A stretch of 64,000 bases of DNA. It comes from a bacterium. GTDB lineage: Bacteria > Vulcanimicrobiota > JABDET01. Position 1 is the stretch's first letter; each line of letters begins with the position of its first letter. Positions 4,995 to 57,346 of the stretch are shown here, in pieces. The translations under genes and the position numbers were made by a program. The notes beneath the pieces are model-generated. The model saw nothing but the letters and a program-made list of their open reading frames with translations. It did not search any database and was not told where the DNA came from. The stretch spans positions 3,141-67,140 of the forward strand of contig JAKAVV010000013.1 in the NCBI GenBank assembly GCA_021817145.1, in the 5' to 3' direction.

Positions 4995-5276
4995 ATGAAA
5001 ACCCTTCCTAAAGTAGAAAAAGAAAATATTGTTAGAATTCTGGAGCGGCTCAATGCAGCAGAACGAATTCTCATCGTAAAACAAAAGAATGGTCGACTCA
5101 GGTTTTATGATCCGCAAAAATATTATGAACACAATGCCTATTTAAAAAAAGCTGTTAAAGAATGGAAGCCGTGGAAAAAAAGAGAGAAATCTCCAGATTC
5201 TATGATTGAAGCTGTTGAACTCGGTTCTTCCAGCAATTTGTCTCGAACAGAAATTTACGGCGATCTTCAGCCTTAA
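4995..5276 (+). CDS. Hypothetical 93-aa protein; putative antitoxin partner of the downstream PIN toxin
   Basis: Stop is 2 nt before the PIN gene start. Lys/Glu-rich with no recognisable RHH/AbrB/Phd signature; the role is inferred from position only. Confidence 0.45.
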   Translation: MKTLPKVEKENIVRILERLNAAERILIVKQKNGRLRFYDPQKYYEHNAYLKKAVKEWKPWKKREKSPDSMIEAVELGSSSNLSRTEIYGDLQP

Positions 5277-5278
5277 AA

Positions 5279-5728
5279 ATGAAAAAGGTCGAATTTTTTG
5301 GCTTGGACACCAATATTCTGGTTTTCGCGTACGATTTGTCCAGCCCCAATCATGACAAAGCCAAGGCTATTTTAGAGGACGCCTTAAAAGGAGTTCGTAA
5401 AGTTTGCCTTTCTCATCAAGTTTTACGAGAATATTTTTCAGTTGTCACAAGAAAAGTAGAAAAGCCTTTAACCCCTCAAGAAGCGGCAAAAAGGGTCCTG
5501 TTTTTAAACCGTTCAAGACGAATAAAGAAAATTTATCCAAAGCGTTCTACTCTAAGAAGATGTATTGAATTTTGCTCAACCAGCAATATAAAAGGGGCCT
5601 TGGTTTTCGACTTGTTTTACGCCATGACTCTTGTTGATAATCATGTCCCCTATCTTTACACGCACAATGTTAAAGATTTCTTGTTTTTAAAGTCTCTTAA
5701 ACCCATTGATCCATTTCTGGAAGAATAG
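5279..5728 (+). CDS. PIN-domain ribonuclease (VapC-like toxin)
   Basis: PIN acidic-residue pattern: LDTNILV (D10), VLREY (E), LVFDLFYAMT (D), TLVDNHVPYLYTHNVKDF (D, D). About 149 aa. Tightly linked to the upstream small gene. Confidence 0.7.
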   Translation: MKKVEFFGLDTNILVFAYDLSSPNHDKAKAILEDALKGVRKVCLSHQVLREYFSVVTRKVEKPLTPQEAAKRVLFLNRSRRIKKIYPKRSTLRRCIEFCSTSNIKGALVFDLFYAMTLVDNHVPYLYTHNVKDFLFLKSLKPIDPFLEE

Positions 5729-22556: not shown

Positions 22557-24035
22557 TCAGGCAGTAATCGGATTAAGGATAGAACCAGCAGAAAAACCAT
22601 TGATCCGATAATACAGCTCATAGGCTTGCTGCTCTGTAAGGCTTGCCACAAAATCAGCCGCGGTTCGCGCAAAAAATTGCTTCTTATTCTTATTCTTATT
22701 GGATGTTTTATTCTCTTCCAACTCTTTTTCAACGAAATACTTAACCCATTCAGGAAAAACTTTTAGCTCTATCTTCTCCTTATTTAAGTAATTAAATGCC
22801 CAGTTAAACAGGCATTCTATAATTTTTTGGCAACCCGTTTGTTGGGATGCAAGAGAGCGCCCTTCAATAACATAATACCAAGTCAAACTTTTCAGCACTT
22901 CGATTTCGATTCTCATGGCGCTTGGAACAATAATCCATTTAAATGTCCCACTCGTCGCAGGCGGAGAGGGGGTAAGGTTAATCTGACGAAAACAATCGTT
23001 TAAAAAGCGATTTGTAAAATCCTCAGAGAAAAGAGCCATCTGTGTAGGTAAGCCTTTATATCTATCCTTCGAAATGCCTTCTGTCCTATTGCTAATTATT
23101 TCCCCAACCTTTTCTTTGAATTTTTCCTTATTTGTCAAGTTTAACTCTTTTAATAACCCCTTTTTCCCCCATTTCTTATAAGTGTATTCCAAAAAATCGT
23201 CAATCTCTTTATCCTGTGGTTGTTTCTGTACTTTATTGTGATCGTCTTCTGCATAGTGTCTTGCAAAAAGTTCCAAGGGGATAAGCCCCGCTTTATAAAA
23301 ATCCTCAACATCATGAATTGCATAAGTAATGTCATCCGCCAGATCCATAATATCAGCTTCCACACTTCTAATGTCATTCGTGCATCCATTTCTTGCAAAG
23401 CCAAAAGCCTCATCATCTTCTGTGTATGCCCCAAATTTTTCTTTTTTTTTGCCCTCTTTTTCCCATCTCCATGGATATTTCAATACCGCATTTAAGGTTG
23501 CTCTTGTTAAATCAAGACCAAGCTGATTTTGATCCCACTTCCATTCGTCATTATTTCGATGGTTCATACGAATAGCAAGCCTAGTGATAATACGGAAGCT
23601 TTGCGCATTTCCTTCAAAACCCTCATGATCTTGACCACTTGCCTTCTTGACAAGCTGATTGAGTTTTTGTTCAGCAGTATGACCAAAGGGGGGGTGTCCA
23701 AGATCATGAGCCAATGCAGCGGCTTCAGCAACATCAGGATCGATCTCAATTTCTCCGCTTTTTACCGTCTCCTTGAGTCGCTCTGCTAATCTGCGGGCAA
23801 TTTGCGCCACTTTTAATGTATGGGTTAGGCGTGTATGGAAAACATGGGTAAGCCCTTCCTGTGAACTGACAACTTGTGTAACTCCCCCTAATCTCCTAAA
23901 ATAAGGGGAGTAAAGCAATCGATCATGATCGTGTTGAAATGGAGTTCTCCAATCTGGAGTATTAGGATCTTTCTTGCTATTAGTAGAAGGTCCACTCTGC
24001 CTATCGTCACGTTGAGGCATTTGCATGATGGGCAA
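22557..24035 (-). CDS. dGTPase-family HD-domain triphosphohydrolase (Dgt-like)
   Basis: Canonical Dgt motifs: DHDRLLYSPYFRRLGGVTQV...RLTHTLKVAQIAR...ALAHDLGHPPFGH...DLADDITYAIHDVED. 492 aa. Sits between fliF and fliG. Confidence 0.85.
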   Translation of the reverse strand: MPIMQMPQRDDRQSGPSTNSKKDPNTPDWRTPFQHDHDRLLYSPYFRRLGGVTQVVSSQEGLTHVFHTRLTHTLKVAQIARRLAERLKETVKSGEIEIDPDVAEAAALAHDLGHPPFGHTAEQKLNQLVKKASGQDHEGFEGNAQSFRIITRLAIRMNHRNNDEWKWDQNQLGLDLTRATLNAVLKYPWRWEKEGKKKEKFGAYTEDDEAFGFARNGCTNDIRSVEADIMDLADDITYAIHDVEDFYKAGLIPLELFARHYAEDDHNKVQKQPQDKEIDDFLEYTYKKWGKKGLLKELNLTNKEKFKEKVGEIISNRTEGISKDRYKGLPTQMALFSEDFTNRFLNDCFRQINLTPSPPATSGTFKWIIVPSAMRIEIEVLKSLTWYYVIEGRSLASQQTGCQKIIECLFNWAFNYLNKEKIELKVFPEWVKYFVEKELEENKTSNKNKNKKQFFARTAADFVASLTEQQAYELYYRINGFSAGSILNPITA

Positions 24036-24043
24036 ACAGGCGC

Positions 24044-24289
24044 TTATACTTTGGTGGCGTATTTCCCGAGCTCAGACAGCTTTATCTTGTTCTCATCATA
24101 AAGATCCATAATCGCCTTATTAAAATCACTCTTCCAATATGGCAGGTTTTGAGCTTTCAACTTTTTTTCTACTGCAGAAGCTAGATTCCTTATTAGCATT
24201 TTATCCCTTCCCTCTGGCAACCTTTCCTTTAGCAACTCCAAAATCATCCCTTTAATTTGCTCTACAGTATCAACGACTAGCCCTGGCAT
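24044..24289 (-). CDS. Hypothetical 81-aa protein co-oriented with, and 8-17 nt upstream of, the dGTPase gene
   Basis: ORF MPGLVVDTVEQIKGMILELLKERLPEGRDKMLIRNL...; no family recognised. Appears operonic with the dGTPase. Confidence 0.4.
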   Translation of the reverse strand: MPGLVVDTVEQIKGMILELLKERLPEGRDKMLIRNLASAVEKKLKAQNLPYWKSDFNKAIMDLYDENKIKLSELGKYATKV

Positions 24290-27547: not shown

Positions 27548-27838
27548 ATGGGAACAACCGGGCCTCAACCAATGAATAAAAAAGAGAAAGAATTTGTTGA
27601 CCTGGCAAGTCAACATCTCTCTCTTTTAAAACAAGAGGGAGCAGATTCTCTTCCTCCTGTGGCTGATCATCTGGTTCAAGCCGGGCTAACCTTGGCTCTT
27701 GGTTCAGGGATCGCAAAAGAACCCGAAGCTTTCAACAAAATGAAAGCCGCCATTCAAAAGAAGATCATGACAAACCCAGAATACAGGCAGAAACTCGAAA
27801 AATTTGTCTCTATTCTTGAAAAGTTCGACAAAAAGTAA
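27548..27838 (+). CDS. Hypothetical 96-aa protein, divergent from flgB (possible FlgM-like; speculative)
   Basis: TTGACA box at 27488-27493 upstream and a GAGG RBS. No family confidently recognised. Confidence 0.4.
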   Translation: MGTTGPQPMNKKEKEFVDLASQHLSLLKQEGADSLPPVADHLVQAGLTLALGSGIAKEPEAFNKMKAAIQKKIMTNPEYRQKLEKFVSILEKFDKK

Positions 27839-28118
27839 GAACTTGACATCCTGTCCGTTCTTGTTCGGAGATGAGGACAGTCATCCTGACTGTCAATCCA
27901 CTCCCGAATAAAGAACTTGACATCCTGTCCGTTCTTGTTCGGAGATGAGGACAGTCATCCTGACTGTCAATCCACTCCCGAATAAAGAACTTGACATCCT
28001 GTCCGTTCTTGTTCGGAGATGAGGACAGTCATCCTGACTGTCAATCCACTCCCGAATAAAGAACTTGACATCCTGTCCGTTCTTGTTCGGAGATGAAGAC
28101 AGTCATCCTGACTGATTA
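27839..28118. repeat. Tandem direct repeat: about 3.8 copies of a 74-bp unit, each able to form an imperfect hairpin
   Basis: Units at 27839-27912, 27913-27986 and 27987-28060 are identical (GAACTTGACATCCTGTCCGTTCTTGTTCGGAGATGAGGACAGTCATCCTGACTGTCAATCCACTCCCGAATAAA). The fourth copy, 28061-28118, has one G>A change and is truncated. Within each unit TTGACA..TGTCAA and CTGTCC..GGACAG are inverted repeats. The array fills the convergent gap between the 27548 gene and the 28116 gene. Confidence 0.9.
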
Positions 28119-29426
28119 TGAAAGAGCAGTTAAGTCATGCCCTTTTCTAGCTTCCTCTAGCATGACATCAGCTAAAAGGTCCCAGCTGCCGAAGTTTTGA
28201 GCGAATAAAGGCTCCCCTGTCCGCGAATCATAATTTTCATGAGCGCCTCCTGTTTTTCGAATATCTGCTGCCACCAGTTTGACCATTTTTCCCGCAATTT
28301 CCTCAGCCTGTTTGTGATAACGATAAGATTCAAGCCCAATCATGGCAAGATAGTTAGCCACAACCCAGACAGGACCCTGCCAGTTTGAAACCGTATGATA
28401 CCCTGGGATCAAGACTCGTTTAGCATTATTGTAAGTTTCTTCATCAAAAGCCAGAGAGGGAATTCCATGTTTTCCCCAAAACTCTTCTGGATTCAACAAA
28501 TGGTTATCCACCATCTGTTTTGCCTGCTCTGAGCTGGAAATCCCTGCCCATAAAGGCAAAAAACAAGTCCAATCCTTAATTCGAATTGGGTTTCCTGTTC
28601 TGGAATCAAGGCTGTAGTACAGATTATCTTTTTTGTCCCACATTTTTTCATTGATCAATTTTCCGAGGTTTTCTGATTTCTCGCGATACTTTTCAGCCTC
28701 CTCAACTTTTCCAAGCTTTTCAGAAATCAATCCCATGGCTTTATATTCTCTAACCAGATAGCAGTTTAAATCCACTCCTTCCACTGACATTGGGGGGGCG
28801 CTTAAAACAGTTACCGTATCATCTGCTCCTGTCTCAACCGCTCTTCTCCAGACAAAAAGCCCATCTGGTTTGCGGCGGTGGGTTTCCCAATAATTTAACG
28901 TTGAGGCAAGCTTGTTAAAAACTTCAGGGGTTATCCAGGAAAAATCGCCGTCAGTTTTTGAAGCTAGATAAGCTCCTTGGGCTAAAAAAGGTTTGCATTG
29001 ATCAGGGTAATCTGAATACCGTGTCGGAGAGATGGTTCTTGGAGTATATCCATCGGGTTTTGTTTGGGCTAAGAAATTTAAAATACATCCTTTCCAGAGG
29101 TCGGTTTTTCCATCAACGCCAAGTCTGATCCCGACAAAAAAAGTGTCCCAGTCATACATTTCAAGGTAGGTCCCTTTCAACCTATCTGCCGGATCATTTT
29201 GGGCAGGAGCGCTTGGAATGACATAAGGGTGAGGAAGCCGTCCTGCAGGAGGGCGGACCATTTTTTCAAAAGAATCCTTAACATAATGGTGAATCACTTT
29301 CTGGTCGCTGCTGAGAGAAGAAGTCATTCTCTGAGAAGATGTGACTGCTGTTTTCAGAGTAGGAGCGACATTCATGCTTATACTGCCAGTACTCATAAAT
29401 CCATGATACCAGAGAAAAAATGCCAA
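28116..29426 (-). CDS. (alpha/alpha)6-type glycoside hydrolase, trehalase/GH37-GH63-like
   Basis: Trehalase-like signature 1 (..LEMYDWDTFF..) and a signature-2-like segment (..SNWQGPVWVVANY..). 436 aa. Family assignment is approximate. Confidence 0.5.
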   Translation of the reverse strand: MAFFLWYHGFMSTGSISMNVAPTLKTAVTSSQRMTSSLSSDQKVIHHYVKDSFEKMVRPPAGRLPHPYVIPSAPAQNDPADRLKGTYLEMYDWDTFFVGIRLGVDGKTDLWKGCILNFLAQTKPDGYTPRTISPTRYSDYPDQCKPFLAQGAYLASKTDGDFSWITPEVFNKLASTLNYWETHRRKPDGLFVWRRAVETGADDTVTVLSAPPMSVEGVDLNCYLVREYKAMGLISEKLGKVEEAEKYREKSENLGKLINEKMWDKKDNLYYSLDSRTGNPIRIKDWTCFLPLWAGISSSEQAKQMVDNHLLNPEEFWGKHGIPSLAFDEETYNNAKRVLIPGYHTVSNWQGPVWVVANYLAMIGLESYRYHKQAEEIAGKMVKLVAADIRKTGGAHENYDSRTGEPLFAQNFGSWDLLADVMLEEARKGHDLTALS

Positions 29427-29442
29427 GGGAATAAAAAAAATG

Positions 29443-42351: not shown

Positions 42352-42600
42352 ATGTCTCTTGCTCGATCCAAAATAGAAGAAAAAAATCTTTTCAATTATC
42401 GTGATTATTTTCTGCTCCCTGACAATGGAAAACGATACCAGATTATCGAAGGAGAACTGTTCATGACTCCACCCCCTGGATTTTCTCATCAACGATCAGT
42501 TACTCAATTAAGTAAGATCCTTGCGAATTATCTAGATAAGAATCCGATTGGAGAAGTGATCTGCGCTCCTTATGCTGTGGGTTTAATTTACTCCACTTGA
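42352..42600 (+). pseudogene. Truncated Uma2-family (DUF820) putative endonuclease fragment
   Basis: ..YRDYFLLPDNGKRYQIIEGELFMTPPPGFSHQRSVTQLSKILANYL..IGEVICAPYAV.. matches the N-terminal half of Uma2 proteins (about 190 aa full length); it terminates at 82 aa. Confidence 0.55.
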
Positions 42601-53433: not shown

Positions 53434-53673
53434 TTAAACTTGCCTTTTAGACTTTAAAGAATGGCTGGCTTTTTGAATAGCAGTAGATGAAGACTGCTGA
53501 GCAAGAAAGTTTTCTTTTTGAATTTCTGTCCAAACCTCTTCTCTATGCACAGAAACATGACCAGGAGCAGAAATCCCAAGTTTTACTTTTCCTTGAGAGA
53601 CTTCAATAATGGTAATTTTAATTTCATCCCCAATCATCACGGATTGATTCACTTTTCTTGCCAGCACCAGCAT
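53434..53673 (-). CDS. csrA: Carbon storage regulator CsrA
   Basis: MLVLARKVNQSVMIGDEIKITIIEVSQGKVKLGISAPGHVSVHREEVW is near-consensus CsrA. Confidence 0.9.
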   Translation of the reverse strand: MLVLARKVNQSVMIGDEIKITIIEVSQGKVKLGISAPGHVSVHREEVWTEIQKENFLAQQSSSTAIQKASHSLKSKRQV

Positions 53674-54057
53674 TTAACTCAGCCTCTCCTCCTCTAGAAA
53701 ACTCCCAACCGCTTCAACCAGTTCATCCGGATCATAAGGTTTCATAAAGTACTCTTTAATCCCACAGCCATTTAACTTTAACAGATCGTATTCATTCCCA
53801 AATGTTCCACTGGTAATAATGACTGGAATACCTGAAAATTCTGGTATGTTTTTTAAATCTTTTAGAAAACTTAACCCATCCATTTCAGGAAGCCATAAAT
53901 CCAGAATAATTAAATCAGCTTTTTCCTCTAAGAGATAATGAATGGCATCAGACGGGTTATCCACACAGGCAACAGAGTAATTTTTTAATTCGAGAGAGGA
54001 CTTTACAATAGTCTGATGATCCTTATTGTCTTCAATCACCAGAATTTTTTTCTTCAT
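53674..54057 (-). CDS. Single-domain response regulator (CheY-like receiver)
   Basis: ..KILVIEDNKDH.., phospho-acceptor D in ..ADLIILDLWLPEMDG.., ..PVIITSG.., K in ..EYFMKP.. Confidence 0.8.
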   Translation of the reverse strand: MKKKILVIEDNKDHQTIVKSSLELKNYSVACVDNPSDAIHYLLEEKADLIILDLWLPEMDGLSFLKDLKNIPEFSGIPVIITSGTFGNEYDLLKLNGCGIKEYFMKPYDPDELVEAVGSFLEEERLS

Positions 54058-54074
54058 CTATTCCTCTCCTTTAA

Positions 54075-55436
54075 TTAGCGGCTGCCAACAAGAGACATTT
54101 GAGCAGAGGCTGAACTTCTTCTGGAAGCAGGTAAAACCAGAGTAAAAGTGCTTCCCACTCCTTCCTGGCTAACCACCTCAATTTCACCCCCCAATTTTTC
54201 GGTTAATTTCTTGACAATATACAATCCCAGCCCTGTGGTTGAGCCTTGTTTTTTAATCTTCGAAAACTTTTCGAAAATAAGCTCTTTATCCTCATTTCGA
54301 ATTCCAGGTCCTGAATCAGAAATAGAGATATTAACCTTTTCATTTTTTTCAAAAGAGGCAATTTTAACAGCTTCTCCTGAGCGACTGAATTTAATGGCAT
54401 TAGAAAGCAGATTCGTTATGATTTCATGAATTTTGTCTTTGTCAGAATCCACCCACAGATTGTCTTTAGCCTCAACAGACAAAACCAAATTTTTCCCTTT
54501 TGCTAAAGAAGAGAGATTTTCAGCCACTTCATCTAAAACCGCTTTTATTTTCACAGGCTCAGAGAGCACAAGAATTTTCCCCTCCTCCATTCGGGCTGTT
54601 TCAAGTAAATTGTTAATTAACAAAAGCATCCCTTTCCCTGAACGAATCAGGGCTGCAAGAAACTTCTGTCTATCTTCCTCTGTAACGCACAGTTTCTGAT
54701 TCTGCAGCAGTCCCGCATATCCCAGAATAGAGGAAAGAGGGGAACGCAGATCATGGGTAATCATGGCGATCATTTCCTCTCGCAATTTTTCTACCTCTTT
54801 TTGAGCGGTAATATCTTTTACGGTAACAATCATCTGTCCAGGAGTTTTATCATCCTGTTTTAGAGAAGAAATGCTGAGAAAAGCAGGGAACTCTTTTCCA
54901 TTAGAAACTCCCACTTTGCAGTCTAAAAGATTAACGGTATTTTTCCCGTTAAAAGTGAGGAAATCTATTAATTTTGCCCCTGAGTAAAAATTCAATGCTT
55001 CTCCATAAGGCTTACCCAAAACATCCTCTTTTTCCAGGTTCGTTAATTTTTCCATTGAACCATTCCAAAAGCCGATCATGCCTGTTTCGTCCAGTGTAAG
55101 AATTCCATCTGGAGCCCCATTTAAAACCGCTTCAAACTTTTGTTTTTCGAGTCGAAGAGAGAGGGATAAATCTTGATAGATTCGGGATAAATATTTGACC
55201 TCTTCTTCCCGATCCACCTCTTTTTTAGAAAAAGAAGCCGGCTGAAATTTCCACAATCCGGTTAGAAACACCCCCATTCTCCAGGAAATAAAAAGAATGA
55301 TCCCTTGAATCCACCAGGTCGGCTTTACTTTAAAAAAAAGAAAAGGAGGATGGGAATGAATAAGGTAAAACTCCCACAAATAACCGAAAAAAGCTGCTGC
55401 TGAAGCGGTAAGGAAAACTCGTTTCTGGCGGCTCAT
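54075..55436 (-). CDS. PAS-domain sensor histidine kinase
   Basis: N-terminal TM segments, a PAS domain (..GILTLDETGMIGFWNGSMEKLTNL..), HisKA H-box ..ITHDLRSPLSSI.., and HATPase_c N/G1/G2 boxes. Start trimmed to MSRQKRV. Confidence 0.8.
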   Translation of the reverse strand: MSRQKRVFLTASAAAFFGYLWEFYLIHSHPPFLFFKVKPTWWIQGIILFISWRMGVFLTGLWKFQPASFSKKEVDREEEVKYLSRIYQDLSLSLRLEKQKFEAVLNGAPDGILTLDETGMIGFWNGSMEKLTNLEKEDVLGKPYGEALNFYSGAKLIDFLTFNGKNTVNLLDCKVGVSNGKEFPAFLSISSLKQDDKTPGQMIVTVKDITAQKEVEKLREEMIAMITHDLRSPLSSILGYAGLLQNQKLCVTEEDRQKFLAALIRSGKGMLLLINNLLETARMEEGKILVLSEPVKIKAVLDEVAENLSSLAKGKNLVLSVEAKDNLWVDSDKDKIHEIITNLLSNAIKFSRSGEAVKIASFEKNEKVNISISDSGPGIRNEDKELIFEKFSKIKKQGSTTGLGLYIVKKLTEKLGGEIEVVSQEGVGSTFTLVLPASRRSSASAQMSLVGSR

Positions 55437-56650
55437 ATTTCTACCGCGCTTAAGACAGGTATGGTAAAACAAAAAGCGCTCCCCTTTCCCAAAGCGCTCT
55501 CTACCCAGATAGCTCCTCCATGAGCTTCTACAATGTGCTTGGCAATAGACAAGCCCAATCCCCTTCCACCTGTGCTTGTTGAACGATCTGTTTCTACCCT
55601 GTAAAATCTTTCGAAAACTCTTTCTCTTTCCCCTTCAGGAATTCCAGGACCAGTATCTTTAACAGAGACTTTTAAAAATCCATCTTCCTGTTCGCACGAA
55701 ATTTGAATATTACCGCCAGGAGGGGTATATTTAATCGCATTATCCATTAAATTAATTAAAACTTGTTCTAATCGATCCTCATCCCCATTGACATCAGGAA
55801 GATTCTCGTTCAAATGGAAGGACAAGGAAATCTTTTTTTTCTCCGCATAATCTTTCAAAAAATCTCCTGCATCCTGAACCAGTTGTCCCAGATCAATAAG
55901 ATGCTGATTCATCCGAGTTCTCTTGGATTCCATCATGCTGAGATCTAAAAGATCGCGAATTAAACGGTTTAATCTCTCAGTTTCTTCATAAATAATTCCT
56001 AAAAATTTCTTTGACATTTCAGGATCTGCGGCTGCCCCGTCCATCAGAGTTTCCACATAACCTTTAATACAGGTAAGTGGGGTGCGCAGCTCATGGGAGA
56101 TATTAGAAACAAACTGCGCCATTACCTCTTCCAAACGGCATCTGAGAGCAGCTTCTCTCTGAGCCTCGTAAACCAATCGATCAACGGTAATGCGAGGATC
56201 AGGAGAAATAAAAGTGTGTCCGACATGAATCACAACTTTCTCTTTTACGGAGTGTGTTCTTGCCCAACTCACAGCTTTCAGTTCCAACTTTTTGCTGATT
56301 CGATAGGAGACCAGTTTTAAGTCAGCGAGAGAAAGAGCCTCTTTATGGCGAGGAGTCGAGAACAGAAACAAGATAAACGATTCCCCTCCAGGTCGTGTCA
56401 CGCAAACCAGATCCTCCTCTCGGTAAAGCTTCCCCTTCGATTCCTGAAAAATCTGTCCAATCTGCTCGAGAAGTTCTCTGCACTTTTCTTTGCCGTACAT
56501 CTCTTCCAATTCTCTAAATCCGGCGATCTCGAAGTACAAAAAACCAACCTGTTCCAATTTCAGCAAATTCTTTTCAACGTTTGAATAAACTGAGGTTAAA
56601 AAAGGAAGTCCTGTCGTTGGATCCGTTAAAAAAGAAAGCTCCATCAACAT
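55433..56650 (-). CDS. Cytoplasmic histidine kinase with an N-terminal degenerate GGDEF-like domain (GGESF)
   Basis: N-terminus ..DPTTGLPF..(about 60 aa)..RPGGESFILFL resembles the GGDEF fold but lacks the GG(D/E)EF catalytic motif. Followed by HisKA ..ISHELRTPLT.. and HATPase_c (..DTGPGIPEGERERVFERFYR..GGRGLGLSIAK..). Confidence 0.75.
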   Translation of the reverse strand: MLMELSFLTDPTTGLPFLTSVYSNVEKNLLKLEQVGFLYFEIAGFRELEEMYGKEKCRELLEQIGQIFQESKGKLYREEDLVCVTRPGGESFILFLFSTPRHKEALSLADLKLVSYRISKKLELKAVSWARTHSVKEKVVIHVGHTFISPDPRITVDRLVYEAQREAALRCRLEEVMAQFVSNISHELRTPLTCIKGYVETLMDGAAADPEMSKKFLGIIYEETERLNRLIRDLLDLSMMESKRTRMNQHLIDLGQLVQDAGDFLKDYAEKKKISLSFHLNENLPDVNGDEDRLEQVLINLMDNAIKYTPPGGNIQISCEQEDGFLKVSVKDTGPGIPEGERERVFERFYRVETDRSTSTGGRGLGLSIAKHIVEAHGGAIWVESALGKGSAFCFTIPVLSAVEI

Positions 56651-57346
56651 CTAGCCTTCTTCATCATATTGGAACTTATACCCAATTCCATGAATGGTCT
56701 TTAAATATTTAGGGAGAGATGGATCCTCTTCGATTTTCTGGCGGATGCGTCTGACATGGACATCCACTGTTCTGGTATCCCCAAGATAATCGTATCCCCA
56801 GAGCTGCTCAAGAAGAAAATCGCGCGTAAAAACCTTCCCACGGTTAGTTGCCAGAAGTTTCAGCAATTCAAACTCTTTAGGTTTTAAATCAACCCTTTCT
56901 CCTTTGACCAGAACTTCATGTTTCGCTAAATTCATGGAAATCTCTTTTACCGTGATCTCTTCCTGTTCTTCAGGGCGAATGCTGGTTCTTCTCAAAATCG
57001 CTTTTACTCTGGCTGTCAGCTCGCGAGGGCTGAAAGGCTTTGTCACATAATCGTCGGCCCCCAATTCAAGCCCTAAGATTTTATCAATTTCTTCTCCTTT
57101 AGCCGTTGCCATCAAAATAGGAATTTTACTTTCTTTTCGAATCTGGCGGCAAACTTCAAGCCCTCCCTGACCAGGGAGCATAATATCCAGAATCACCAGA
57201 TCCGGCTTCTCCTCTTTCGCCAGTTTTACTGCTTCAATTCCATCAAAAGCAGTAACCACTTCATACCCCTCTTTTTCCAAGTTGAACTTTAGAAGTTCAA
57301 CGATATTCCTTTCATCATCTACGACTAAAACTTTCTCTTTTGCCAC
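56651..57346 (-). CDS. OmpR/PhoB-family DNA-binding response regulator
   Basis: Receiver domain (..VLVVDDERNIVELL..DLVILDIMLPGQGG..) and winged-helix output domain (..RVDLKPKEFELLKLL..TVDVHVRRIRQKIE..). Confidence 0.9.
   Translation of the reverse strand: MAKEKVLVVDDERNIVELLKFNLEKEGYEVVTAFDGIEAVKLAKEEKPDLVILDIMLPGQGGLEVCRQIRKESKIPILMATAKGEEIDKILGLELGADDYVTKPFSPRELTARVKAILRRTSIRPEEQEEITVKEISMNLAKHEVLVKGERVDLKPKEFELLKLLATNRGKVFTRDFLLEQLWGYDYLGDTRTVDVHVRRIRQKIEEDPSLPKYLKTIHGIGYKFQYDEEG

What the first reader, a model, noticed from the sequence alone, without database searches (positions are those of the whole stretch)
27839..28118. Array of 74-bp hairpin-forming tandem repeats filling a convergent intergenic region
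Three perfect copies plus a 58-bp fourth copy with one substitution sit between two convergent genes. The unit length (74) is not a multiple of 3, so the array cannot encode a repeat peptide. Each unit is an imperfect palindrome: the outer arms TTGACA/TGTCAA and inner arms CTGTCC/GGACAG enclose an 18-nt loop, with a bulged direct repeat CATCCTG on the 3' arm. Repeats this perfect imply recent amplification or ongoing homogenisation. Array copy number may be variable (phase/length polymorphism). Possible roles include stacked bidirectional terminators, a REP/BIME-like protein-binding array, or a processed small-RNA array. It is not a CRISPR, because there are no spacers.
Basis: seen in the sequence. 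Interest (0 to 1): 0.6.

Follow-up and report, generated by a model that had tools for sequence, protein, structure and literature searches.

The report
Strain-variable hairpin tandem repeat between genes
A 74-base, two-hairpin DNA module is repeated head-to-tail in the short gap between two converging genes of an uncultured bacterium, and its copy number differs between strains; it is a real but fairly ordinary bacterial minisatellite, with one intriguing unproven resemblance to RNAs that soak up the regulator CsrA.

Summary
The array is real: window 27837-28114 holds three identical 74-nt units plus a 56-nt fourth copy with one substitution (28097). It fills the stop-to-stop gap between a 96-aa ORF (+) and a GH63/MGH1-like hydrolase (-). 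The same locus in other assemblies carries 0.76, 1.76, >=2.76 or 3.76 copies, on two SNP backgrounds, and contigs break inside it. It is therefore a genuine hypervariable VNTR. No copy exists elsewhere in the 64-kb window, in 28 related loci or in the scanned collections. It lacks the GTAG/CGTC tags of REPs, and the window has no transposase, RAYT or cas gene. A sister lineage has an unrelated single terminator hairpin at this position. Best reading: a minisatellite built from the 3'-end hairpins of the convergent genes, expanding and contracting by recombination or slippage, with extra copies near-neutral or mildly tuning termination and mRNA stability. Speculative alternative: on the minus strand every hairpin apex reads CAGGAUG, the CsrB repeat, and a canonical csrA lies 25 kb away. 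Only motif-level evidence supports this.

The parts
27837..28114 (.). Whole tandem array: 3.76 copies of a 74-nt unit
   Evidence: TRF score 549 with 99% matches; the repeat finder family D1
27837..27910 (.). Unit copy 1 (identical to copies 2 and 3)
27911..27984 (.). Unit copy 2
27985..28058 (.). Unit copy 3
28059..28114 (.). Terminal partial copy (56 nt) carrying the G>A polymorphism at 28097. This SNP occurs only in terminal copies across alleles.
27837..27862 (.). First hairpin B' (inner part only): AAGAAC-TT-GACA-TCC-TGTC-C-GTTCTT. On the minus strand it is followed by ACUUUUUGUCG (27826-27836), making it the likely intrinsic terminator of the hydrolase gene.
   Evidence: Fold gives -8.5 kcal/mol plus a U-tract. 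The sister lineage has a different hairpin in front of the same U-tract.
27876..27894 (.). Hairpin A, copy 1: GACAGTCA-TCC-TGACTGTC (8-bp perfect stem; the minus-strand loop reads GGA). Further copies lie at 27950-27968 and 28024-28042, with a truncated copy at 28100-28114.
   Evidence: (I14-I16)
27901..27944 (.). Full hairpin B spanning a unit junction: CTCCCGAATAAAGAAC-TT-GACA-TCC-TGTC-C-GTTCTTGTTCGGAG. Further copies lie at 27975-28018 and 28049-28092.
   Evidence: -17 to -19 kcal/mol
27893..27910 (.). Junction-only 18 nt, TCAATCCACTCCCGAATA, absent from the 0.76-copy alleles. It completes the stem of hairpin A and supplies the outer arm of hairpin B. Also at 27967-27984 and 28041-28058.
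27548..27838 (+). Upstream flanking gene: a 96-aa protein of unknown function, restricted to a narrow clade and always divergent from flgB. Its stop codon overlaps the first bases of the array.
28116..29426 (-). Convergent flanking gene: a GH63/MGH1-like glycoside hydrolase (gene callers use the start at 29396, giving 426 aa). On this strand the array would be its 3' UTR.
   Evidence: Pfam PF22422, 141 bits

Best explanation
The array is a hypervariable minisatellite (VNTR). A 74-nt module of two hairpins sits in the 3' spacer of two convergent chromosomal genes and has been amplified head-to-tail. It keeps expanding and contracting by unequal recombination or replication slippage between identical units, probably helped by the hairpins. 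Functionally, the hairpins are the 3'-end structures of the flanking transcripts. On the minus strand the hydrolase mRNA would run through the array and stop at the leftmost hairpin B', which is followed by ACUUUUUGUCG. The internal hairpins would act as weak terminators or as blocks to 3'-exonucleases. They would also insulate the oppositely oriented 96-aa ORF and the flgB operon further downstream from read-through. Extra copies are probably near-neutral or give only a graded, strain-specific change in termination and mRNA stability. Shown: the array's existence, the two-hairpin anatomy, the copy-number polymorphism, and confinement to one locus and one species-level lineage. Inferred: the expansion mechanism, the terminator/stabiliser role, and near-neutrality.
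For: The array is real and has perfect copies. The two-hairpin fold is strongly favoured on both strands. The same locus in other assemblies has 56, 130, >=204 or 278 nt of array, in exact 74-nt steps. The 130-nt allele is spanned in k141 assemblies (L018). Contigs end inside the array at a unit boundary (L019) or about 30 nt in (L020, L024), as expected where multi-copy alleles exist. Both the A and G variants of the terminal-copy SNP occur with several copy numbers, so changes are recurrent. The unit is absent from the rest of the 64-kb window and from all other loci. It is also absent from the genome, metagenome, viral, plasmid and phage collections. A sister lineage has an unrelated 42-nt spacer at this position, with a single hairpin in front of the same conserved U-tract, which points to a terminator job for this spacer. 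More distant relatives have no convergent gap here at all. The window is core chromosome with no transposase, RAYT, integrase or cas gene. Literature analogues: the E. coli 12-hairpin REP325 array acts as a partial terminator plus mRNA stabiliser, and REPs between convergent genes behave as bidirectional terminators (bioRxiv 10.64898/2026.03.23.713779). MIRU minisatellites are intergenic and mutate fast in copy number (PMC3635867).
Against: The consensus terminator scan calls nothing inside the array on either strand. The stems are AT-rich or interrupted, and the internal units lack good U-tracts. There are no expression data. The 18-nt junction segment completes both hairpins and cannot be derived from the 0.76-copy allele, so the module has a history that simple slippage of a random spacer does not explain. 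Copy numbers come from short-read metagenome assemblies, which handle tandem repeats poorly. Whole-genome dispersal could not be tested because the source genome is not in the searchable collections.
Confidence: 0.62

Rival explanations
1. CsrA-titrating RNA. The minus-strand transcript (the hydrolase 3' UTR or a processed product) displays two CAGGAUG hairpin loops per unit, eight in this allele. It would bind CsrA dimers like a CsrB/Rsm-type sponge, with a capacity set by the repeat number.
For: On the minus strand both apexes read CAGGAUG with GGA in the loop. This equals the CsrB repeat CAGGA(U/A/C)G found in hairpin loops. Hairpin B's apex ACAGGAUGU is one base short of the SELEX consensus RUACARGGAUGU (PMC7652899; PMC5207318). 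Sites are 35/39 nt apart. The minus-strand GGA count of 18 per 280 nt is the maximum for the window. A canonical csrA that passes NCBIfam equivalog cutoffs and keeps L4 and R44 lies at 53434-53673, with no fliW beside it. The array lies next to the flagellar operon. The only Rfam hit of any relevance is CsrB on the minus strand.
Against: The CsrB hit scores 11.7 bits against a gathering score of 71 (E = 0.83 in a 900-nt search). GGA density is only slightly above other windows, which reach 16, and short GGA-loop hairpins are common by chance. Hairpin A has an 8-bp stem and a 3-nt loop, whereas SELEX ligands mostly had stems of 4 bp or fewer and 6-nt loops. The two apexes probably share an origin, so the identical loops count as one event, with roughly a 1-in-32 chance of GGA on one strand or the other. 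The element is confined to one species-level lineage, is absent from the sister lineage, and is deleted in L017, so it is dispensable. The CsrA has a Bacillus-like C-terminal extension typical of FliW-controlled CsrA. There is no promoter-like site and there are no expression data. Other CAGGAUG sites in the window show no pattern.
Confidence: 0.08
2. A local cluster of a dispersed REP/BIME- or MITE-like palindromic element family, spread by a RAYT or another transposase, of which this window happens to show only one cluster.
For: Extragenic palindromic hairpins lie downstream of converging genes in a tandem cluster whose copy number differs between strains, which is the typical habitat and behaviour of REP clusters (PMC3733652). 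The junction-only 18 nt suggest that a pre-formed two-hairpin module existed before the amplification.
Against: There are no other copies or diverged relatives in 64 kb or in any related locus. The unit has no GTAG/CTAC or CGTC/GACG tag on either strand. The window has no RAYT or other transposase. There are no true matches in public collections. The units are head-to-tail, whereas REP dimers are mostly head-to-head or tail-to-tail.
Confidence: 0.1
3. A DNA-level array of protein-binding sites (iteron- or operator-like GACA-N3-TGTC / TTGACA...TGTCAA palindromes), or a recombination hotspot recognised by a site-specific enzyme.
For: The palindromes are regularly spaced. GACANNNTGTC occurs 4 times in the array and only once elsewhere in the window. 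The L017 deletion has its left breakpoint at the first bases of the array.
Against: The array lies between two stop codons, far from any promoter. The window has no replication, partition or recombinase genes. The unit has no homologue on plasmids or phages. The sequence is not conserved in relatives.
Confidence: 0.05
4. An assembly artefact: the repeat number, or the repeat itself, is produced by mis-assembly of short reads.
For: All data are metagenome assemblies. Tandem repeats longer than k are unreliable, and contigs break in the array.
Against: The repeat junction is present in several independent assemblies from different sources and assemblers: NCBI MAGs, ENA MEGAHIT contigs, and the graph branching in Logan contigs. 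The 130-nt allele is shorter than k = 141 and so must be read-supported (inference from the contig names). The alleles differ by exact multiples of 74 nt.
Confidence: 0.03

Closest known systems
Bacterial intergenic minisatellites (VNTR loci, for example the MIRU-VNTR loci of Mycobacterium tuberculosis)
   Same: Head-to-tail repeats of a unit of tens of bases, located between genes and probably transcribed with them. Copy number changes much faster than point mutation and differs between strains (PMC3635867).
   Different: MIRUs are a family present at many loci of one genome. This unit is known at a single locus, is strongly hairpin-forming, and lies between convergent genes and not inside operons.
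REP clusters / BIMEs of Enterobacteria and Pseudomonas (for example the 12-hairpin REP325 of E. coli)
   Same: Arrays of extragenic hairpins in 3' UTRs, often between convergent genes. They act as partial terminators and mRNA stabilisers, and their presence and number vary by strain.
   Different: The unit has no GTAG/CGTC tag, no dispersed copies were found, no RAYT is nearby, and the units are strictly head-to-tail and identical. This is a resemblance in how it works, not family membership.
CsrB/CsrC/RsmX-Y-Z CsrA-sequestering RNAs
   Same: Many GGA motifs sit at hairpin apexes, with the exact CsrB repeat CAGGAUG on the minus strand, and a csrA gene is present in the genome.
   Different: The array fails the Rfam models (11.7 bits against a gathering score of 71). 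It has no identifiable promoter of its own, very stable stems with 3-nt loops, and perfect tandem units. It lies outside the Gammaproteobacteria, is not conserved even in the sister lineage, and has no binding or expression evidence.
Bidirectional intrinsic terminators between convergent genes
   Same: A palindromic hairpin flanked by an A-tract and a T-tract sits directly after both stop codons (AAAAAGTAAGAAC...GTTCTTGTT). The sister lineage has a simple version at the same place.
   Different: The stems are weak or interrupted, and only the leftmost copy has a convincing U-tract, on the minus strand only. The consensus scan does not call any of them. Tandem amplification is not a feature of terminators.

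Membership tests
VNTR / minisatellite | Head-to-tail repeats of a unit of roughly 10-100 bp | tested here: met
   Period 74, 3.8 copies, 99% matches
VNTR / minisatellite | Copy number differs between strains of the same species at the same locus | tested here: met
   Array lengths of 56, 130, >=204 and 278 nt between identical flanks, on two SNP backgrounds. Caveat: these are short-read metagenome assemblies.
REP / BIME | Many dispersed copies per genome (tens to thousands) | tested here: inconclusive
   There are no further copies in the 64-kb window, in 28 loci or in the public collections. The complete source genome could not be searched. Absence from 64 kb argues against an abundant family but not against a low-copy one.
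REP / BIME | Unpaired GTAG or CGTC tetranucleotide tag at one end of the palindrome (PMC3733652) | tested here: not met
   GTAG, CTAC, CGTC and GACG each occur 0 times in the unit. The TGTC at the end of hairpin A is base-paired.
REP / BIME | Extragenic palindromic stem-loop downstream of coding regions | tested here: met
REP / BIME | Associated RAYT (IS200/IS605-type Y1 transposase) | tested here: inconclusive
   None of the 66 window ORFs scanned with Pfam is a RAYT. The rest of the genome could not be reached.
CsrB/Rsm-type CsrA sponge RNA | Multiple GGA motifs exposed in hairpin loops | tested here: met
   Eight CAGGAUG apexes on the minus strand. However, the loops are 3 nt long and sit on stable stems.
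CsrB/Rsm-type CsrA sponge RNA | Match to a curated family model at gathering score | tested here: not met
   No Rfam hit at gathering score. The best hit is CsrB at 11.7 bits against 71.
CsrB/Rsm-type CsrA sponge RNA | A cognate csrA/rsmA gene in the genome | tested here: met
   Pfam PF02599 at 83.7 bits and NCBIfam equivalog at 90.2 against a cutoff of 73; L4 and R44 are conserved
CsrB/Rsm-type CsrA sponge RNA | Expressed as an RNA that binds and antagonises CsrA | not testable with these tools
   There are no transcript or binding data, and no sigma-70-like promoter site was called within the array.
Intrinsic (bidirectional) terminator | G+C-rich uninterrupted stem followed by a U-run | tested here: inconclusive
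   The consensus scan finds none in 27837-28114. The leftmost hairpin B' (-8.5 kcal/mol, interrupted stem) is followed by ACUUUUUGUCG on the minus strand.
CRISPR array | Repeats separated by unique spacers, with cas genes nearby | tested here: not met
   The units are contiguous with no spacers, and the window has no cas genes.
Type III toxin-antitoxin (ToxI-like RNA repeat array) | Repeat array followed on the same strand by a toxin endoribonuclease gene | tested here: not met
   On both strands the sequence downstream of the array is antisense to a real gene. The flanking proteins and the antisense ORFs have no PADLOC hit.

The most novel reading that the evidence does not exclude
The minus-strand transcript of the array is a CsrA-binding RNA outside the Proteobacteria. 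Its number of high-affinity CAGGAUG hairpin sites, from 2 to 8 or more, is set by a hypervariable tandem repeat. Strains would then differ heritably in how much CsrA they titrate, and hence in motility and carbon regulation. The array sits beside the flagellar operon, and csrA lies 25 kb away.
Probability: 0.07. Interest if true: 0.7.

Novelty: new member of a known kind. Interest (0 to 1): 0.3.

Why it matters
As a VNTR, its main value is as a strain marker for an uncultured lineage known only from metagenome-assembled genomes (NCBI labels such as Candidatus Eremiobacteraeota). It is also a cautionary example, because assemblers break or collapse at this spot and copy number must be read from long reads. 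It gives a clean natural series of 0.76, 1.76 and 3.76 copies between identical flanks, which could be used to measure how stacking hairpins in a convergent 3' spacer changes termination, read-through towards a flagellar operon, and mRNA stability. Only if the CsrA-binding reading were confirmed would it become important, as a repeat-number-tunable protein sponge in a phylum where none is known.

Tried and rejected
1. The genome contigs and metagenome contigs pattern scans found no true matches. The linker 29-mer and the hairpin-A 20-mer gave only L012 and L013, which are chance 20-mers inside coding sequence with unrelated flanks.

2. The search for related loci with the hydrolase returned only distant relatives (26-37% identity), so the source species is not in the searchable genome set and genome-wide dispersal could not be tested.

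3. The viral, plasmid and phage searches found nothing.

4. Rfam gave nothing at gathering score. At E <= 10 it gave only noise (snoRNA, miRNA and plastid 3'UTR models) plus the weak CsrB hit.

5. The promoter idea was rejected. TTGACA in each unit matches the -35 consensus, but no -10 follows at 16-18 nt on either strand and the scan calls no promoter in the array.

6. A coding or repeat-peptide reading was rejected because every frame has stops.

7. An integron attC site was considered and rejected from the sequence: only the GTT/AAC of the core sites is present, and the neighbours are core genes.

8. CRISPR, type III TA and tRNA-like readings were rejected.

9. An ungapped self-complementarity test of the unit scored no better than shuffles (32 of 74 against a null of 31.8 +/- 2.6), so the array is not a simple alternation of one module and its inverse. 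The symmetry lies in two separate local dyads.

10. A search for CAGGAUG-type sites in the csrA, flgB and 96-aa ORF leaders, and a window-wide census of the motif, showed no pattern.

11. The exact look-up of the 436-aa hydrolase ORF failed because gene callers use a later start. The 426-aa form worked.

Full report
OBSERVATION

Tandem Repeats Finder reports a 74-nt period, 3.8 copies, 99% matches and score 549 at 27837-28114, and it is the only strong tandem repeat in the 64-kb window. The repeat finder gives three identical copies (27837-27910, 27911-27984, 27985-28058) and a fourth. The fourth copy matches for 56 nt (28059-28114), not 58, and has one G>A change at 28097. The 55-nt core matches three times against zero expected. 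The array starts inside the TAA stop of a 96-aa ORF (27548-27838, +) and ends one base before the stop of a GH63/MGH1-like hydrolase (28116-29426, -; Pfam PF22422, 141 bits). It therefore fills the whole convergent gap. Every reading frame through it has stop codons.

ANATOMY

Each unit is best described as two hairpins, not one imperfect palindrome.

- Hairpin A is GACAGTCA-TCC-TGACTGTC, with 8 perfect pairs and a 3-nt loop.
- Hairpin B is CTCCCGAATAAAGAAC-TT-GACA-TCC-TGTC-C-GTTCTTGTTCGGAG. It is long and imperfect, and it straddles the unit junction.
- Both apexes carry the same heptamer CATCCTG.

A 74-nt unit folds to -27 to -29 kcal/mol on either strand (z about -3 to -5). The whole array has z = -7.5 on the plus strand and -5.6 on the minus strand. 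The array's ends are truncated modules. The first hairpin B lacks its outer 5' arm, and the last hairpin A lacks two stem bases.

COPY NUMBER IS POLYMORPHIC

The exact 96-aa protein is encoded on many public contigs (73 index blocks), all with the same neighbours. Between identical flanks the array lengths are:

- 56 nt (0.76 copy): L003, L004, L005, L007, L023.
- 130 nt (1.76 copies): L001, L002, L006, L018.
- 278 nt (3.76 copies): the window.

L019 is a contig that ends at a unit boundary after 2.76 copies. L020 and L024 are Logan contigs that stop about 30 nt into the array, at the point where a de Bruijn graph branches if both the '...GACTG-A' exit and the '...GACTG-T' continuation are present. 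The 130-nt allele is shorter than the k = 141 implied by the contig names, so it must be spanned by reads (inference). The terminal-copy SNP defines two backgrounds, and each occurs with several copy numbers: A with 0.76, 1.76, >=2.76 and 3.76; G with 0.76 and 1.76. Expansion and contraction are therefore recurrent and faster than point mutation.

IS IT A DISPERSED ELEMENT?

No test that could be run supports this.

- The unit, hairpin A, hairpin B and the linker were each searched with up to 3 mismatches and occur only in the array within the 64-kb window.
- A sensitive blastn against the window and all fetched loci finds nothing else.
- Exact-pattern scans of the genome, metagenome and viral collections gave no true hits, and blastn against plasmids and phages gave none. 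The two metagenome hits are chance 20-mers inside coding sequence.
- The unit has none of the GTAG/CGTC tags that define the REP superfamilies (PMC3733652).
- All 66 window ORFs belong to core functions (respiratory complex, a flgB-to-flhA flagellar operon, lipid A synthesis, the dcw cluster, two-component systems). There is no transposase, RAYT, integrase or cas gene, and no tRNA.

The limitation is that the source species is not in the searchable genome set. A low-copy family elsewhere in the genome therefore cannot be excluded.

EVOLUTIONARY CONTEXT

The organism is an uncultured bacterium known from MAGs, labelled Candidatus Eremiobacteraeota, or in one record Bacillota. A sister lineage (L014-L016) has the same gene order. 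Its spacer is 42 nt, is unrelated in sequence, and holds a single hairpin (GCCTC...GAGGC). On the minus strand that hairpin precedes the same conserved ACUUUUUGUC, which is the antisense of the ORF's last codons. In the window's lineage the leftmost hairpin B' (-8.5 kcal/mol) occupies that position. The job of this spacer is therefore most simply to terminate the hydrolase transcript (inferred).

More distant relatives (L025-L028) keep the small ORF divergent from flgB but have a co-directional metallo-beta-lactamase-fold gene after it. One close strain (L017) lacks the array and the hydrolase altogether, with the left breakpoint at the first bases of the array. The array is thus young, lineage-specific, dispensable, and located at a synteny breakpoint.

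One puzzle remains. The 18 nt found only at unit junctions (TCAATCCACTCCCGAATA) complete the stem of hairpin A and provide the outer arm of hairpin B, and they are absent from the 0.76-copy alleles. Those alleles must therefore be contractions, and the two-hairpin module predates the current amplification. Its origin is unknown.

MOST LIKELY MECHANISM

The array is a minisatellite built from the 3'-end hairpins of two convergent genes, changing length by unequal recombination or replication slippage between identical 74-nt units. The hairpins probably act as the hydrolase terminator (leftmost copy) and as weak terminators or exonuclease blocks (internal copies). They would also insulate the antisense 96-aa ORF and the downstream flgB operon from read-through coming from the HU-ApbA-hydrolase genes on the same strand.

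This is how E. coli REP arrays behave. The 12-hairpin REP325 is a partial terminator and mRNA stabiliser that yields a ladder of transcripts, and REPs between convergent genes coincide with bidirectional terminators (bioRxiv 10.64898/2026.03.23.713779). In its genetics the array resembles MIRU-type VNTRs (PMC3635867).

Against a strong terminator role, the consensus scan calls no terminator or promoter inside the array.

THE MOST INTERESTING ALTERNATIVE

On the minus strand every apex reads CAGGAUG with GGA in the loop. That is the repeat of CsrB, CAGGA(U/A/C)G in hairpin loops. Hairpin B's ACAGGAUGU is one base short of the SELEX consensus RUACARGGAUGU (PMC7652899; PMC5207318). The array has eight such sites, 35/39 nt apart. 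The only relevant sub-threshold Rfam hit is CsrB on that strand. A canonical csrA with L4 and R44 conserved lies at 53434-53673 with no fliW beside it.

The evidence against this reading is substantial:

- The Rfam score is 11.7 bits against a gathering score of 71.
- GGA density (18 per 280 nt) barely exceeds other windows (16), and GGA-loop hairpins are common by chance.
- Hairpin A is much more stable and tighter-looped than known ligands.
- The two identical apexes probably share ancestry, so they count as one coincidence.
- The element is absent from the sister lineage and deleted in one strain.
- The CsrA has the long C-terminus of FliW-controlled homologues.
- Other CAGGAUG sites show no pattern.

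I give this reading about 7-8%.

VERDICT

The element is a new member of a known kind, a hairpin-forming intergenic VNTR. It works like a BIME/REP cluster but does not belong to that family. Interest is modest (0.3).

Noticed in passing
window ~27842-29439; L017:2880-2900: One closely related MAG (GCA_023381495.1) lacks the array and the whole hydrolase gene. The 96-aa ORF's stop is followed almost directly by the end of the ApbA gene. The left breakpoint of this ~1.6-kb deletion lies in the first bases of the array, which hints that the repeat is recombinogenic.
   Followed up: partly
window 53434-57346 (-): csrA (79 aa, with a long C-terminal extension) is the last gene of an operon encoding an OmpR-type response regulator, a histidine kinase with a GGDEF-like N-terminus, a PAS histidine kinase and a CheY-like receiver. 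No fliW is adjacent. This is an unusual genomic context for csrA.
   Followed up: partly
window 27548-27838 (+); L014, L025-L028: The 96-aa ORF has no Pfam, NCBIfam or PADLOC match and only two other homologue clusters among 5.8 billion proteins. It is always divergently transcribed from flgB, so it may be a lineage-specific flagellar regulator or chaperone. The gene after it differs between relatives: a hydrolase, a Lactamase_B_3 gene, or none.
   Followed up: partly
window 22557-24289 (-); L001-L006:878-2742: An HD-domain phosphohydrolase and a small ORF are inserted between fliF and fliG inside the flagellar operon. Their called lengths differ between strains (471-492 aa; 81 against 144 aa), which suggests another variable spot.
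   Followed up: no
window 27574-27629: A 17-nt imperfect inverted repeat (27580-27596 / 27611-27627), with an inner 21-nt hairpin TGTTGACCTGGCAAGTCAACA, lies inside the 96-aa ORF. The scan flags it as terminator-like on both strands, and it attracts weak Rfam noise hits.
   Followed up: no
window 4995-5728 (+): A 93-aa ORF with no family match is followed, with a 2-nt gap, by a 149-aa PIN-domain protein. This is probably a VapBC-type toxin-antitoxin pair.
   Followed up: no
window 42352-42600 (+): An 82-aa fragment matching only the N-terminal third of the Uma2 putative-endonuclease domain sits inside the dcw cell-wall cluster between a Glycos_transf_4 (MraY-like) gene and a MurD-like ligase gene. 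It is probably a gene remnant.
   Followed up: no
window 28097: The G/A polymorphism occurs only in the terminal partial copy and never in internal copies, across alleles of 0.76 to 3.76 units. This is consistent with turnover confined to the internal units or with crossovers upstream of the SNP.
   Followed up: yes
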